A DNA stretch of 64,000 bases, from NCBI RefSeq assembly GCF_009914755.1, contig NC_060935.1, one strand, 5' to 3'. The notes under the pieces were generated by a model. That model ran no database searches, was not told the DNA's origin, and worked only from the letters and a program-made list of their open reading frames with translations. Positions within the stretch are counted from its first letter, which is position 1. Each line of letters begins with the position of its first letter. The position numbers were made by a program, and so were the translations under genes. Of the stretch, positions 14,007 to 31,490 are shown one piece after another. Source of the stretch: the human T2T-CHM13v2.0 reference genome, Homo sapiens.

Positions 14007-14129
14007 GAAGTGCTTTCCAGGAAACCAGCATCCACTGGGATAAATACAGGAATAAGAGGAGAGTTGCCCATTAAGGTCCATCAAGGTCTTTTAGCTGCTG
14101 TACCTTACCAGAATTATATGGAAAATCAG
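14007..14129 (+). CDS. CCDC15: CCDC15 coding exon (probably exon 6), 123 nt, EVLSRKPASTGINTGIRGELPIKVHQGLLAAVPYQNYMENQ
   Basis: tttttttccAG acceptor, CAG/GTAGGG donor, 41 open codons, matches recalled CCDC15 protein. Confidence 0.93.
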
Positions 14130-23284: not shown

Positions 23285-23431
23285 GAACTTGACTATGAGG
23301 AACCTGACTATGAGGAATCTTCATCTCTTGTAACTGATGAGAAAGGGAAAGAAGATTTGTTTGGGAGAGGCCAGCAGGACCAGCAGGCTATCCATTCTGA
23401 AGATAAGAACAAACCTTTCAGCAGAGTTCAG
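23285..23431 (+). CDS. CCDC15: CCDC15 coding exon (probably exon 7), 147 nt, ELDYEEPDYEESSSLVTDEKGKEDLFGRGQQDQQAIHSEDKNKPFSRVQ
   Basis: ttttctttAG acceptor, CAG/GTAAAG donor, 49 open codons. Confidence 0.93.
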
Positions 23432-23669: not shown

Positions 23670-24677
23670 AAAGTAAAATTCAAAAATCCATTATTTGTTC
23701 TGATGGAAGAGGAAGAACAAAAGCAGTTACATTTTGAGGGCCTTCAGGATATTCTGCCAGAAGCCCAGGATTATTTTCTAGAAGCCCAAGGTGATTTGCT
23801 GGAAACCCAGGGTGATTTGACAGGAATCCAGAGTGTTAAGCCAGATACCCAGGCTGTTGAAATGAAGGTTCAGGTTACTGAGCCAGAAGGCCAGGCCATT
23901 GAGCCAGAAGGCCAGCCTATTAAGACAGAAACTCAGGGTATTATGCTGAAAGCCCAGAGTATTGAGCTAGAAGAAGGGAGTATTGTGTTGAAAACCCAGG
24001 ATTTTCTACCCACAAATCAGGCTCTTCTAACGAAAAACCAGGATGTTTTACTCAAAGACCACTGTGTTCTCCCTAAAGACCAGAGTATTCTACTCAAATA
24101 TCAGGACCAGGACTTCCTACCCAGAGACCAGCATGTTCTCCACAAAGACCAAGATATTCTGCCAAAATATCAGGACCAGAATTTTCTACCTAAGGACCAG
24201 AATTTTTTATCTAGAGACCAGCATGTTCTCCCCAAAGACCAAGATATTCTGCCAAAATATCAGGACCAGAATTTTCTACCTAAGGACCAGAATTTTTTGT
24301 CTAGAGACCAGCATGTTCTCCCCAAAGACCAGAATATTCTACCTAAATATCAAGACCAGGATTTTCTACCTAAAGACCAGGACTTTTTATCTAGAGACCA
24401 GCATGTTCTCCCCAAAGACTGGAATATTCTACCCAAATGTCAGGACCAGGATTTTCTACCCAGAGACCAAGGTGTTCTTCCCAAAGACCAAAATATTCTA
24501 CCCATATGTCAGGACCAGGATTTTCTACCCAGAGACCAAGGTTATCTTCCTAAAGACCAAAATATTCTACCCATATGTCAGGACCGGGATTTTCTACCCA
24601 GAGACCTGCATGTTCTCTCCAACGACCAGAATATTCTACCCAAATGTCAGGACCAAGATTTTCTACCAAAATATCAG
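23670..24677 (+). CDS. CCDC15: CCDC15 large repeat exon (probably exon 8), 1008 nt / 336 aa, KVKFKNPLFVLMEEEEQ...QDQDFLPKYQ
   Basis: cactttTAG acceptor ending 23669, CAG/GTAAAA donor at 24678; contains the 327-aa ORF at 23703..24686; QDQDFLP repeats typical of CCDC15. Confidence 0.95.
23739..24677 (+). repeat. Coding tandem repeat: 21-nt (7-aa) monomers, with 69-nt and 90-nt higher-order units from 24054
   Basis: Heptads such as GLQDILP EAQDYFL EAQGDLL, then RDQHVLP/KDQNILP/KYQDQDFLP/KDQNFLS units; near-identical 90-nt copies at about 24123-24392. Confidence 0.92.
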
Positions 24678-27302: not shown

Positions 27303-27425
27303 GAGAAATATTTCTGGCAGCCATTATCTGCTTAGACAGCTGAAAGATGGAAAAAGGAGTGGTCCATAAGTACTCAGCAGTATCTTTCACACAGGTTCCA
27401 AGGCCATCCCTCCACCAGAGATGAG
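27303..27425 (+). other. Dead pseudo-exon copy of the 41-codon CCDC15 cassette
   Basis: Reads EKYFWQPLSA*TAERWKKEWSISTQQYLSHRFQGHPSTRDE (123 nt); acceptor reads TGG, donor reads TTAGAC; flanks resemble those of the real exons. Confidence 0.7.
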
Positions 27426-27637
27426 TTAGACTAAAAGGAAGAAGAAAGACCAACAGGAATTAGATTACTTAGGGTTGTGGTTGGACTTTTGTGGAATGGA
27501 GTGTAGTTTTTGGTTTTTCCATAAGGTGCTCAATTATATTCTGATCTTGGTTAACTCCAGAATTCTCACTAAAACCTAAAGTCTTAACCTGTCATTCTTA
27601 ACGGAGCAATTGATATGTTGTGTTTGTTCTTTCATAG

Positions 27638-27757
27638 AAAGCAAGTCTGAAGCAGCCAACATCCATTTTGATAGGTAGGAGAGGGAGAGAGGCACTTCCT
27701 CTGGATGTCCATCAGGATCTTCTATGCAGGCATCATCAGGCCTCCATCAGAGGCAAG
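27638..27757 (+). other. Intact cryptic exon copy (120 nt, stop-free, AG/GT)
   Basis: ttctttcaTAG, then KASLKQPTSILIGRRGREALPLDVHQDLLCRHHQASIRGK, then AAG/GTAGAA; homologous to exon 29123 (QP..R.RE.LPLD.HQ). Confidence 0.8.
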
Positions 27758-28003: not shown

Positions 28004-28126
28004 AAAGTACACTTTAAGGAGCCATACTCTGATATGACAGATGAGAAAGGGAGAGAAGACTTTTCTCTGGCAGACTATCAGTGTTTGCCTCCCAAATCCC
28101 AGGACCAGGATGACATCAAAAATCAG
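28004..28126 (+). CDS. CCDC15: CCDC15 coding exon (probably exon 9), 123 nt, KVHFKEPYSDMTDEKGREDFSLADYQCLPPKSQDQDDIKNQ
   Basis: tatctttTAG acceptor, CAG/GTAGAG donor, 41 open codons. Confidence 0.92.
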
Positions 28127-28557: not shown

Positions 28558-29122
28558 TAGTGGGAAGATGATCCTAAGTCCTATTAGAACAGAGGAACTG
28601 CTTCAGGAGCATAGAGTGTTAAACACTAAACAATTCAGTTCCTCCTGGTCTCTCTCCTTTTTGTTTTTTTCTCTTCTACTTTGTACTTCAGTGGTACAAA
28701 AGACCCTGGTCTAGGGAACTATATGAGTCAAAATCAGTTCAGTGATTTCTGAGGCTGATGTATCACGTTCATATCTTATTCCAGAATCAGTTGACTATTT
28801 TAATTTAACAAGATTATTCTTCAACTCTTACCAAAGCCAACAGTATTGCTGCAAGCATAATGCCCCTACATGTACAATGTAGGAACTAGAAGATACTTAG
28901 GATTTGATGAGTTTGTCAGACTATTTTGTCAATGATGGGATTAAGAATTAAGGTCTACATAGTTGAGCTAAAAGTGTAACATCTCCCTCATATCAAAACG
29001 TATCAGAATATTTTTACCTGGTTTCATTTCTCTGGAGTTTTCACTGAAGCTTATGATATTATGATTAGCATTACACAATTTTTTTTCTGTTGTTGTTTTT
29101 CCTTTAAAATATGTTTCTCAAG

Positions 29123-29230
29123 CAACCTGCATCTTTTATGAGAGAAGAAAGAGTGAGAGAGGAATTGCCTCTGGACTATCATCAATATGTTGTACCTAAA
29201 ATCCAGGACCAAGACTCCCCTAGAGAACAG
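29123..29230 (+). CDS. CCDC15: CCDC15 coding exon (probably exon 10), 108 nt, QPASFMREERVREELPLDYHQYVVPKIQDQDSPREQ
   Basis: AAG acceptor ending 29122 (first AG after the T-rich tract), CAG/GTAGAA donor at 29231; the recalled protein reads ...KNQ-QPASF... across this junction. Confidence 0.88.
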
Positions 29231-29711
29231 GTAGAACCGAATACAGTAGGAGGACTGTATACCTTCTAAAAGGGGAACAAGCCTAAATCATATTAACATT
29301 GAGGCTGAAGCCTGTCAAGCTAGCTTGTTTGTGGAATACATAGAATTAAGGCCTCCAGAATTAAGCTAAGAGTATAATGTTTTTGGTTATTTCAAAATGT
29401 GCCAGAATAATCTGGAATTTGCTTTAAAATACTCCAGGAAAAACATTGGAGAAGAGATAGATAATAAAGCAAAATGTTGCTAATTGTTGAATCTGGGTAA
29501 TTGTTGAATCTTGAGATTCATTATACTTTTTTTTTTTCTACTTTGATGCAAGTTTGGAAATTTTTATGTTGAACACACACACAGCTTTAACTGTGTTCTA
29601 TTATCCTCACCTAGTGTCATTACTCTGGGATTGTCACTGAAGTCTATAATACTGTCACTAGCCCGTCATTTCTGCTTAGACAATCAGTTTTGTATTTTGT
29701 TGTTCCTTTAG

Positions 29712-29786
29712 AACAAGCATATCAAACTACCCTCATCTTTTGAGAAATGGGAGATTGCAAGAGGAAATACTCCTGGAGTGCCATTG
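29712..29786 (+). CDS. CCDC15: CCDC15 coding exon (probably exon 11), 75 nt, NKHIKLPSSFEKWEIARGNTPGVPL
   Basis: ttccttTAG acceptor, TTG/GTATGT donor at 29787; matches recalled protein. Confidence 0.88.
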
Positions 29787-30098
29787 GTATGTTTCACACA
29801 ATATTCAAGATCTAGTCTCTTCTAGAGAAGTAGAGCAGAATATAGTGAGTAAGTAACAGAGTGTAAATTGCTTTTTTTTTGGCTGAAGATTGACACGGCA
29901 ATGTAACTGCTTCAGGAATTTAGTGTTAAGGTTAGTAATAACGGGCAAAGAATATAACGTTCTTTTGTTCTGTGATGTATCACACCATTCTGACCTATTG
30001 AAACTACCTCAGTCTTCTTGACTGAAGCTTTTACCATTGCCACAGGAATGATGATCCCGCTTGGATAACTTATGTTCAGTGTTTATGTTGTCTTTTAG

Positions 30099-30221
30099 CA
30101 CAGGAACTATGAGTAGGCCTCACGTGATATGAGAGATGAGAGATGGAGGAAGGAGTTACTTCCATAGCGCCATGGATATATTTTACATGAAATCCAAGAT
30201 CCAGGCTCTGCCAGAGAGCAG
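30099..30221 (+). other. Pseudo-exon copy, splice sites intact, two in-frame TAG
   Basis: tctttTAG, then HRNYE*ASRDMRDERWRKELLP*RHGYILHEIQDPGSAREQ, then CAG/GTAGAG; 123 nt. Confidence 0.8.
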
Positions 30222-30693: not shown

Positions 30694-30816
30694 AACTTAT
30701 ACATTAGGCAGCAGCTATCTGTGTGGTCAGCTGAAAGACGGCCACAGGATTTTCTTCTGGGTGGCCATTAGCACCTTTCACCCATGCACCAGAGAGATAC
30801 TTCCAGCAGACGACAG
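30694..30816 (+). other. Pseudo-exon copy, splice sites intact, one in-frame TAG
   Basis: tatctttTAG, then NLYIRQQLSVWSAERRPQDFLLGGH*HLSPMHQRDTSSRRQ, then CAG/GTAGAG; 123 nt. Confidence 0.8.
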
Positions 30817-31057
30817 GTAGAGCACATCACAGGGTATGAGCAGTGGAATTTGGACAAGATTATAGGTACCTACTAAACTGGGAGTGGTCAGGCTGATCAA
30901 GAAGCACATTCCTGTTTTATTTCATACAGCGCAAAATGTATCCTGATATTATTATCCTAATCCTAAGATTATTTTAGGTCTCCCATTGAAACCTAGGGTA
31001 TTTTGGGGAGCATTTATTGTCCATTTGAAAAACTATATTTTAGATGTATTTTTATAA

Positions 31058-31183
31058 AAGGTATATTTCTGATGGCCATTGTCTTTTACAGTGTGAGAGG
31101 GGAAGAAATGAGCAGTTTCTGAGGGCAGGGGTTATGAGGATCTTCCACCCCATGGCCAGTACTAGATCTCCATCAGTAAGCTG
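31058..31183 (+). other. Degenerate pseudo-exon copy (acceptor TAA, several stops)
   Basis: tttaTAA aag gta tat ttc tga tgg cca ... aag ctg/GTAGAGCA; same donor flank and upstream motif as the other units. Confidence 0.6.
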
Positions 31184-31421
31184 GTAGAGCATAAGGCAGG
31201 CTCACCAAGAAATAAACTAATCAGGTTTGGGCTGGAGCTTGTTAGGTTTCTGTTGCCTAAGGTTTGGGGGCATTGAGTTAAGATCTGTAGTTTTTCAAGA
31301 AAATGTTACAACATCCTGGCCTACTAAGATTTTTCCGTGGCTTAACTGAAGTTTAGTTTATTATCACTGGAATTTTACCCCTCTGTGCATAATTTTTATT
31401 TTCTGATTTTATGTTTTTAAA

Positions 31422-31490
31422 AATGAAGGCTTACGGCAACCAGCAGTGTTAGGCTGTGTGAGAGACTGAAGAGAAATTTTCTCTTGGCCT
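31422..31490 (+). other. Truncated pseudo-exon copy (last unit of the array)
   Basis: Reads NEGLRQPAVLGCVRD*REIFSW with QP at codons 6-7, as in other units; upstream motif cctactaagat...actgaag about 79 nt before it. Confidence 0.45.

What the first reader, a model, noticed from the sequence alone, without database searches (positions are those of the whole stretch)
29712..29829. Exon rescued from a frameshift by a new donor: 15 residues come from an alternative reading frame
Aligned to the 29108-29230 unit, this copy lacks 2 nt after ...TCT TTT (ATG AGA became G AGA) and lacks the terminal CAG. The old donor GTAGAGCAG survives at 29830 but would give a 118-nt frameshifting exon. The ancestral frame is still stop-free: RNGRLQEEILLECHWYVSHNIQDLVSSRE aligns without gaps to REERVREELPLDYHQYVVPKIQDQDSPRE. 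The used donor TTG/GTATGT at 29787 lies where the paralog has CAT CAA TAT GTT, and it gives 75 nt in phase 0. So EKWEIARGNTPGVPL is frameshift-derived new peptide and the last 43 nt of the old exon became intron (inference from the alignment).
Basis: partly seen in the sequence, partly recalled or inferred. Interest (0 to 1): 0.8.

Follow-up and report, generated by a model that had tools for sequence, protein, structure and literature searches.

The report
Ancient frameshifted repeat exon in CCDC15
This 75-base exon of the human centriole gene CCDC15 is a shortened copy of a repeated 123-base exon whose last 15 amino acids are read in a shifted frame, and the change is shared across placental mammals, so it is ancient.

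Summary
A profile built from seven sibling units, without this one, aligns 29671-29859 in one piece (E=1.2e-24). It has only two internal gaps: 2 nt at about 29741/29742 and 3 nt just before the old donor GTAGAGCAG at 29830. The shifted-frame match is significant: a D-type unit profile from other species hits the +1-frame ORF at 29737-29829 with E=1.4e-7 among 2829 window ORFs.

The exon is unit E of a tandem array of at least eight 123-nt units at 27.3-31.2 kb. Three of them (A, F, G) are dead in human but coding in other mammals.

The same 25-residue exon, in the same shifted frame and with the same end, occurs in primates, rabbits, carnivores, pangolins, horses, rhinos, pigs, camels, whales and ruminants. 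It also occurs in an unnamed sequence that groups with elephants. No intact 123-nt form of E was found in 252 models. The second elephant unit is a D-type copy.

The event therefore predates the deepest placental split sampled. "Rescue" is one of several orders of events that cannot be told apart. This is a new example of a known kind and is of moderate interest.

The parts
29698..29711 (+). Acceptor region of unit E (tgttgttcctttag|), at the ancestral position of the unit
   Evidence: It aligns to the acceptors of units B, C, F and G.
29712..29741 (+). Exon E head: 10 codons (NKHIKLPSSF) still read in the ancestral unit frame
   Evidence: It aligns to NMFLKQPASF of unit D.
29741..29742 (+). 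Site of the 2-nt deletion (AT of the unit's ATG codon). The exact placement within TCTTTT is ambiguous by a few bases.
   Evidence: The 2-nt gap appears in MAFFT, nhmmer, pairwise and nine-unit alignments. All eight other units carry the two bases.
29742..29786 (+). Exon E tail: 15 codons (EKWEIARGNTPGVPL) read in the frame shifted by the deletion. The same DNA in the +1 frame matches the unit.
   Evidence: The tail is present in 215 of 252 mammalian CCDC15 models (213 by score, plus 2 Bos models by eye).
29787..29792 (+). Donor in use, TTG|GTATGT. It lies where unit D has CAA TAT GT. TATGT is shared with D; only the three bases TGG differ.
   Evidence: It matches the consensus at 6 of 9 positions. 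It is the only GT between 29720 and 29861 with at least 5 of 9 matches that gives an open, in-phase exon.
29787..29829 (+). Relic: the last 43 nt of the ancestral exon, now intron. It is 70% identical to unit D (30 of 43).
   Evidence: The +1 frame gives YVSHNIQDLVSSRE. Two whale and two camel models translate the equivalent stretch in frame 0.
29830..29838 (+). Ancestral donor GAA|GTAGAGCAG, now without the exonic CAG. G is absent at both -1 and +5, and 4 of 9 positions match the consensus.
   Evidence: Sibling donors are CAG|gtagag or CAG|gtagaa.
27303..27425 (+). Unit A: a pseudoexon in human (one stop, donor GT changed to TT). It is coding in lemur, loris, elephant and armadillo models.
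27638..27757 (+). Unit B: a 120-nt alternative exon of other RefSeq transcripts
   Evidence: Hub annotation.
28004..28126 (+). Unit C: a 123-nt constitutive exon
29108..29230 (+). Unit D, the closest sibling of E. The human exon starts at 29123 because the ancestral acceptor AG reads AA.
30099..30221 (+). Unit F: a pseudoexon in human (two in-frame stops; AG and CAG|gtagag kept). It is coding in orangutan, gibbon, loris, seal, rhino, pig and elephant models.
30694..30816 (+). Unit G: a pseudoexon in human (one stop; splice sites kept). It is coding in lemur, colugo, rabbit, carnivore, ungulate, bat, elephant and armadillo models.
31025..31201 (+). Unit H: a degenerate copy of the unit
   Evidence: nhmmer E=1.1e-11 and 1.9e-9. 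Gorilla isoform X1 uses 31092-31178.

Best explanation
Exon 29712-29786 is unit E of a tandem array of 123-nt, phase-0 exon units in CCDC15. The units encode a long stretch of the protein that AlphaFold2 models without confident structure.

Shown: E belongs to the D/F subfamily of the units. Relative to all siblings it has lost 2 nt after codon 10, which moves the downstream reading by one frame. Splicing now uses an internal donor, TTG|GTATGT, that lies 43 nt upstream of the ancestral donor. In ancestral coordinates 2 nt were deleted and 46 nt (the 43-nt relic plus the CAG) are no longer exon. That is 48 nt in all, so the exon is 75 nt and stays in phase 0-0. The result is 10 residues in the old frame plus 15 residues (EKWEIARGNTPGVPL) in a frame the unit never used. 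The old 3' end survives as intron, followed by a donor that has lost its exonic CAG.

Shown from protein models: the same 25-residue product is shared by primates, lagomorphs, carnivores, pangolins, perissodactyls and cetartiodactyls. It is also present in an unnamed sequence that groups with elephants.

Inferred: the change was fixed before these lineages split, roughly 90-100 million years ago on recalled divergence dates.

Inferred: the intermediate was tolerable because every unit is a symmetric cassette in a repetitive, probably disordered region. A unit can be skipped or die without breaking the frame, as A, F and G did in human.
For: Derivation from the unit:
- The leave-one-out DNA profile hit spans intron, exon, relic and old donor with only the 2-nt and 3-nt gaps between the acceptor and the old donor, E=1.2e-24.
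- Identity to D is uniform at 65-73% across upstream intron, exon head, shifted part, relic and downstream intron.
- E is nearest to D (63%) and F (62%) among nine units.
- The +1 frame hits the D-type protein profile at E=1.4e-7, second of 2829 ORFs, with 14 of 29 residues identical to D.

Splice logic:
- Siblings use CAG|gtagag or CAG|gtagaa.
- The old site here is GAA|gtagag (4 of 9 consensus matches).
- The used site is TTG|gtatgt (6 of 9) and is the only GT with at least 5 of 9 matches that gives an open in-phase exon.

Age:
- E peptides with the shifted tail appear in 213 of 252 models by alignment score, plus 2 Bos models by eye.
- There are 45 distinct variants across the orders named above.
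- P0393 carries NKFTNQPSSFEKWEVVRGVACGMPS and forms a four-row clade with Elephas, Loxodonta and P0125 at SH-aLRT 100.

Unit history:
- Types A, B, C, F, G and D each form cross-order clades, with support 94, 98, 99, 100, 98 and 91. The array therefore predates the placental radiation.

Tolerance:
- In the AlphaFold2 model of the gorilla orthologue, residues 188-760 have pLDDT below 50 and almost no secondary structure. E encodes about residues 714-738.
Against: - No genomic DNA or RNA-seq from other mammals was available. The 2-nt deletion and the donor in other species are inferred from protein models, most of them automatic predictions that may copy one another's exon boundaries.
- No species shows an intact 123-nt E, so the ancestral state rests on paralogs only.
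- Elephants (8 models), bats (11 models from 3 genera), armadillo, anteater and both colugos lack E in their models. If P0393 were misplaced, the event could be boreoeutherian rather than older.
- P0393 is unnamed, and its clade assignment rests on a quick gene tree and on unit clades with 80-91 support.
- The alignment score cut-off of 30 used equals the best score among 60 shuffled proteins.
- Conservation of the shifted tail (mean identity to rhino 0.68) is no higher than that of the head (0.66) or of unit D (0.65). It is lower than B, C and G (0.80-0.83). Selection on the new peptide is therefore not demonstrated.
Confidence: 0.85

Rival explanations
1. Resurrection of a dead copy. Unit E never served as a 123-nt exon. 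It was a duplicate of a D/F-type unit that decayed as a pseudoexon (2-nt deletion, weakened donor). Its first 75 nt were recruited later, when an internal GT became usable. On this reading there was recruitment, not rescue.
For: - Three of the human units (A, F, G) are dead pseudoexons today, so death of units is common in this array.
- Gorilla isoform X1 recruits part of the degenerate unit H.
- No intact E was seen in any of 252 models.
Against: - E's acceptor and polypyrimidine tract are intact and at the ancestral position.
- E is the unit present in the most models (215 of 252, against C in 185), which is unusual for a late recruit, although the sample is biased.
- This differs from the main reading only in the unobservable order of events.
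Confidence: 0.35
2. Donor first. The internal site was already a cryptic or alternative donor in the 123-nt exon. Units A and C still carry GT there, within CAG TAT and CAG TGT. Its use gave a 77-nt, out-of-frame, NMD-targeted isoform. The 2-nt deletion then made that isoform productive, and the old donor decayed afterwards.
For: - GT is present at the homologous position in units A and C, and TATGT is shared by D and E.
- The CAG gap seems absent in the two baleen-whale models that read through the relic, which suggests the old donor decayed later and separately in different lineages.
Against: - D and F, the nearest siblings, have A rather than G at the +1 position.
- No data on ancestral splicing exist.
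Confidence: 0.2
3. Artefact. The similarity of the +1 frame and the relic to the unit is chance or an alignment artefact, or the annotated 75-nt exon boundary is wrong.
For: - The stop-free ancestral frame is not significant on its own (966 of 10000 shuffles are open).
- Stronger-looking GTs lie just downstream, at 29845 (7 of 9) and 29849 (6 of 9).
Against: - E=1.2e-24 for the leave-one-out DNA profile and E=1.4e-7 for the protein profile in the +1 frame.
- The exon end ...GVP[S/L] followed by the next exon recurs in models of six named orders.
- The hub's RefSeq table lists 29712-29786 in the selected transcript NM_025004.3.
Confidence: 0.02

Closest known systems
Evolutionary splice-site shifts and compensating frameshifts, as handled by comparative annotation tools (CESAR, TOGA, TOGA2)
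   Same: The frame effect of an indel is neutralised elsewhere in the same exon, here by moving the donor, so that the transcript stays in frame. Passages read: TOGA2 preprint 10.64898/2026.06.30.735536 and PMC7671337.
   Different: Those cases are defined between orthologues. This one is seen only between paralogous exon units, is fixed across placentals, and leaves 15 residues permanently in the alternative frame.
Frameshift translation as a source of new coding sequence in duplicated genes
   Same: A duplicate acquires an indel and the shifted reading is kept as protein. The concept is stated in the abstract of PMC5374649 (search listing only). The paper whose title supplied the search phrase, and earlier work on duplicated genes, are recalled and were not read.
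   Different: Here the duplicate is a single 123-nt exon inside one gene. The shifted stretch is ended by a new splice donor, not by a second indel or a stop.
Tandem exon duplication
   Same: There are head-to-tail copies of exon plus flanking intron, with the same phase, within one gene. Seen in listing and abstract only: PMC8373072.
   Different: The classic cases are pairs of mutually exclusive, homologous exons. The CCDC15 units are additive cassettes in a low-confidence region, with lineage-specific death of units and sliding of splice sites.

Membership tests
CCDC15 123-nt tandem exon unit | Nucleotide homology to sibling units across the exon and both flanking introns | tested here: met
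   The leave-one-out nhmmer hit covers 29671-29859 with E=1.2e-24. Identity to D is 65-73% in all five segments.
CCDC15 123-nt tandem exon unit | Same strand and tandem position within the array | tested here: met
   Units lie on the + strand at 27.26, 27.59, 27.95, 29.06, 29.66, 30.05, 30.66 and 31.03 kb.
CCDC15 123-nt tandem exon unit | Symmetric phase 0-0 and a length that is a multiple of 3 | tested here: met
   The exon is 75 nt, mod 3 = 0.
CCDC15 123-nt tandem exon unit | The used reading frame encodes the unit's peptide over the whole exon | tested here: not met
   Only the first 10 residues are in the unit frame. The D-type profile matches the +1 frame at 29737-29829.
Frameshift compensated by a splice-site shift | A frameshifting indel relative to the ancestral exon | tested here: met
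   A 2-nt gap against all eight other units. The ancestral state is inferred from paralogs only.
Frameshift compensated by a splice-site shift | The splice site moved by a distance that restores phase | tested here: met
   The donor is 43 nt upstream of the old one, or 46 nt counting the lost CAG. With the 2-nt deletion, 48 nt are removed, taking 123 nt to 75 nt.
Frameshift compensated by a splice-site shift | An orthologue that keeps the uncompensated or ancestral form | tested here: not met
   No intact E was found in 252 models. The second D-like unit of elephants clusters with afrotherian D units at support 89.
Frameshift compensated by a splice-site shift | Transcript evidence that the new site is the one used | not testable with these tools
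   Only the hub's RefSeq table and orthologous protein models are available. There are no RNA-seq data.

The most novel reading that the evidence does not exclude
The out-of-frame peptide is more than tolerated filler. A frameshift in a redundant repeat unit created a new short motif, EKWEI-x-R...GVP, in the centriole inner-scaffold protein CCDC15. This motif has been kept for about 100 million years, and its exon became the most regularly included unit of the array: 215 of 252 models, and the only unit present in several New World monkey isoforms. It would then be a functional linear motif born by frameshift, for example a binding site for an inner-scaffold partner.
Probability: 0.2. Interest if true: 0.6.

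Novelty: new member of a known kind. Interest (0 to 1): 0.35.

Why it matters
This is a clean, dated example of how a repeat-exon array evolves. A frameshifted copy was kept by a moved donor, and 15 residues of alternative-frame peptide have since been part of a conserved centriole protein in most placental orders.

It also shows that the CCDC15 linker is built from at least eight exon units that die, revive and slide their splice sites in a lineage-specific way. That matters in three practical ways:
- Interpreting human CCDC15 variants. The pseudoexons F and G keep intact splice sites and carry stop codons.
- Orthology-based annotation of this gene.
- Choosing constructs for functional work.

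It does not change any general principle.

Tried and rejected
- A Pfam scan of the gorilla orthologue found 0 families. The precomputed label PF28517 is not in the local copy, so its extent is unknown.
- The 2023 J Cell Biol paper on CCDC15 (PMC10630097) was searched by terms in two calls. The words exon, isoform, ortholog, truncation, deletion mutant and coiled-coil domain occur 0 times, so it gives no mapping of this region.
- A search for 'CCDC15' plus 'exon duplication' found 0 papers. Searches returned only general literature.
- Idea rejected: elephants keep an intact 123-nt E. They have a full-length unit between D and F. But it clusters with afrotherian D units (support 89), and its best match is the D unit of P0393 at 81%. 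P0393 itself carries the 25-residue E.
- Idea rejected as evidence: the open ancestral frame. It is not significant.
- A test for selection on the new frame was possible only as protein identity to rhino. The tail scores 0.68, the head 0.66 and unit D 0.65. This is inconclusive, and dN/dS would need DNA from other mammals.
- The AlphaFold2 model has mean pLDDT 40.6. It supports 'no confident fold here' and nothing more. No fold search was run.
- The representative search (150 of 398 listed) added only one E-bearing sequence, P0140. A second regex hit, P0211, is spurious.

Full report
**What is in the sequence**

Exon 29712-29786 is 75 nt, phase 0, and encodes NKHIKLPSSFEKWEIARGNTPGVPL. Its acceptor is ...tgttgttcctttag|AAC and its donor is TTG|gtatgt.

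I aligned it with the other short CCDC15 exons of the window: 14007-14129, 27638-27757, 28004-28126 and 29108/29123-29230. Exon and flanking intron are clearly homologous.

- Against unit D, TCT TTT ATG AGA has become TCT TTT G AGA.
- The terminal CAG is missing.
- GTAGAGCAG stands at 29830-29838.
- Use of that old donor would give 118 nt (mod 3 = 1) with an in-frame TAG.
- The ancestral frame from 29743 to 29829 reads RNGRLQEEILLECHWYVSHNIQDLVSSRE. It is identical to D at 14 of 29 positions, without gaps.

**Is it more than chance?**

I built an nhmmer profile from seven units with E left out: A, B, C, D, F, G and the 14007 exon. It hits 29671-29859 at E=1.2e-24 against the whole window. The hit is one alignment that starts in the upstream intron and crosses the acceptor, the exon, the donor in use, the 43-nt relic and the old donor. 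It ends 30 nt beyond the old donor. Between the acceptor and the old donor its only gaps are the 2-nt and the 3-nt gap; one further 2-nt gap lies in the upstream intron.

Identity to D is uniform:

| Segment | Identical / aligned | Identity |
|---|---|---|
| Upstream intron | 44 / 60 | 73% |
| Exon head | 20 / 29 | 69% |
| Shifted coding part | 30 / 46 | 65% |
| Relic | 30 / 43 | 70% |
| Old donor and downstream | 32 / 45 | 71% |

A protein profile of 15 D-type units from other species was searched against all 2829 stop-to-stop ORFs of at least 15 residues in six frames. It finds D first (E=2.3e-27). The +1-frame ORF covering 29737-29829 comes second (E=1.4e-7), ahead of unit C (2.6e-4). So the shifted-frame homology is significant.

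The stop-free state of that frame is not significant. 966 of 10000 shuffles of the 87 nt are open, and 3456 of 10000 for the relic alone.

**The surroundings: an array of units**

The profile also finds unannotated copies. tblastn with orthologue segments shows what they are, and one search gives their splice sites.

| Unit | Coordinates | State in human |
|---|---|---|
| A | 27303-27425 | One stop; donor GT changed to TT |
| B | 27638-27757 | Alternative exon |
| C | 28004-28126 | Constitutive exon |
| D | 29108-29230 | Used from 29123 |
| E | 29712-29786 | The finding |
| F | 30099-30221 | Two stops; splice sites kept |
| G | 30694-30816 | One stop; splice sites kept |
| H | about 31025-31201 | Degenerate copy |

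Weaker matches fall at 31377-31489, at exon 23285-23431 and at both ends of the large exon 23670-24677.

A, F and G are coding exons in models of other mammals. Among the human units, E is nearest to D (63%) and F (62%). Other pairs are 41-58% identical.

**Age**

The protein databases hold mammalian CCDC15. I used three homologue searches:
- 120 of 544 hits listed, primates and colugos;
- 41 hits;
- 120 of 194 hits listed.

I also ran one representative search (150 of 398 listed).

The 25-residue exon with the shifted tail is present in these groups (the last giving 45 distinct variants):
- apes, Old World monkeys and New World monkeys;
- lemurs and a loris;
- Oryctolagus and Lepus;
- many carnivores;
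- pangolins;
- Equus, Diceros and Ceratotherium;
- pigs, camels, whales, Bos and Muntiacus.

By local alignment of the 15 shifted residues, 213 of 252 models score at least 30. The best score among 60 shuffled proteins was 30, so the cut-off is tight. Two Bos models score 27 and carry the exon by eye.

The 37 models without it are:
- all 8 elephant models;
- 11 bat models (Pteropus, Rousettus, Molossus);
- Dasypus and Tamandua;
- both colugos;
- the unnamed P0313 and P0368;
- single isoforms of gorilla, orangutan, Saimiri, Microcebus, Meles and Lontra.

An unnamed protein, P0393, has NKFTNQPSSFEKWEVVRGVACGMPS. In a 30-row gene tree (733 columns, IQ-TREE quick, LG+G4) it forms a four-row clade with Elephas, Loxodonta and P0125 at SH-aLRT 100. 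It is 82% identical to Loxodonta. By plain BLAST it is only slightly closer to Elephas (64.9%) than to Diceros (64.2%).

If that placement is right, the shifted exon predates the split between Afrotheria and Boreoeutheria. If it is wrong, the exon is at least boreoeutherian. The figure of about 90-100 million years is recalled, not computed.

**Is there an intact E anywhere?**

Elephants have a full-length unit between D and F, which at first looked like an unbroken E. Armadillo has two D-like units and the anteater three.

I built a tree of 68 units (41 columns, so poorly resolved within types). Types A, B, C, G, F and D form cross-order clades, with support 94, 98, 99, 98, 100 and 91. Both elephant copies sit with the D units of P0393 and P0125 at support 89. 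The second elephant copy is closest to P0393's D (81%).

These are D duplicates, so no intact E was found. The derivation of E therefore rests on paralogs, and the order of events cannot be read from these data.

**How it works**

*Splicing.* The sibling donors are CAG|gtagag or CAG|gtagaa. They lack G at +5 and rely on the exonic CAG. This dependence follows from the recalled U1 consensus MAG|GTRAGT.

In E the old site reads GAA|gtagag. G is absent at both -1 and +5, and 4 of 9 positions match. The site in use, TTG|gtatgt, matches 6 of 9. It is the only GT between 29720 and 29861 with at least 5 matches that gives an open, in-phase exon. Its TATGT is shared with D; only TGG against CAA differs.

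Units A and C carry GT at the same position, while D and F do not. Whether the GT was gained or was already latent is therefore open.

*The CAG gap.* Two baleen-whale models translate past the donor in frame 0. Their sequence follows the human frame-0 translation of the relic and the old donor region at 16 of 21 aligned positions. They have one extra residue exactly at the CAG gap. This suggests the 3-nt loss is later than, and separate from, the founding event. It is an inference from predicted proteins.

*Arithmetic.* 2 nt were deleted and 46 ancestral nt were left to the intron. That is 48 nt, so phase is kept.

*Protein.* In an AlphaFold2 model of the gorilla orthologue (40-sequence alignment, mean pLDDT 40.6), residues 188-760 are below pLDDT 50 with almost no secondary structure. 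E encodes about residues 714-738. The flanking helices 58-188 and 763-877 are confident. A cassette in such a region can change frame, be skipped or die with little structural cost. This is inference.

**Is the new peptide selected?**

Mean identity to rhino:

| Part | Mean identity |
|---|---|
| Shifted tail of E | 0.68 |
| Head of E | 0.66 |
| Unit D | 0.65 |
| Unit B | 0.80 |
| Unit C | 0.83 |
| Unit G | 0.81 |
| Next exon | 0.84 |

The tail is thus as conserved as its nearest sibling, and no more.

E is the unit found in the most models: 215 of 252. The others are C 185, G 131, B 114, D 110, F 63 and A 10. The sample is biased by isoform multiplicity, by an excess of primates and by a query that itself contained E.

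**Comparison with what is known**

Splice-site shifts and compensating frameshifts are routine categories in comparative annotation (passages read in the TOGA2 preprint, and in PMC7671337). Frameshift translation in duplicates is an established idea (abstract of PMC5374649 in a listing). Tandem exon duplication is well described (abstract of PMC8373072 in a listing).

I found nothing in print on the CCDC15 exon array:
- 'CCDC15' plus 'exon duplication' gave 0 papers.
- The main CCDC15 paper never uses the words exon, isoform or ortholog.
- Supplementary tables of the exon-duplication surveys were not opened.

**Verdict**

The event is ancient and shared across placentals, so it is not a datable primate or mammalian novelty. 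"Rescue" is one of three orders of events that cannot be distinguished. This is a new member of a known kind, and its interest is moderate (0.35).

Noticed in passing
window 30099-30221 and 30694-30816: Units F and G keep a good acceptor and a CAG|gtagag donor in human but carry two and one in-frame stops. F is coding in orangutan and gibbon models but appears in no gorilla or chimpanzee model seen, so it may have died recently in the African-ape lineage. If included in human transcripts, these exons would make NMD targets.
   Followed up: partly
window 29106-29123: Unit D's ancestral acceptor AG reads AA in human (cctttaa|AAT). The exon starts 15 nt downstream, after ctcaag, which gives 36 instead of 41 residues. 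The 41-residue form is seen in rhino, horse, rabbit, badger, bat and elephant models. The 36-residue form is seen in primates and in the afrotherian-like P0393 and P0125.
   Followed up: partly
window 27423-27460: Unit A's donor GT is TT in human. Lemur, loris, elephant and armadillo models read through this point for about 10 more codons (LDQKEEERQE-like) before splicing, which is an in-frame downstream donor shift. Similar +15-nt read-throughs (VEQN-like residues) follow unit D in horse, rhino and ring-tailed lemur models and unit C in elephant models.
   Followed up: partly
window 31092-31178: Gorilla isoform X1 includes an 87-nt exon taken from the degenerate unit H. By eye it is read in a frame other than the unit's. 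The human sequence is open and 27 of 29 residues identical, but it is not among the RefSeq exons listed by the hub.
   Followed up: no
window 29845-29854: Two consensus-like donors, ATA|gtgagt (7 of 9) and TGA|gtaagt (6 of 9), lie 58 and 62 nt downstream of the donor in use. Both would give frameshifted exons that contain a stop. Baleen-whale models appear to use a site in this neighbourhood to make a longer in-frame exon.
   Followed up: partly
window 23670-24677: The 1008-nt exon consists largely of short QDQDFLP[KR]DQ-type repeats. These give weak matches to the 3' part of the 123-nt unit profile (E from 0.0017 to about 1). Their number differs between primates: coverage of the query is 75-100% and identity 57-99%. 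The large exon may be a fused, expanded part of the same repeat family.
   Followed up: no
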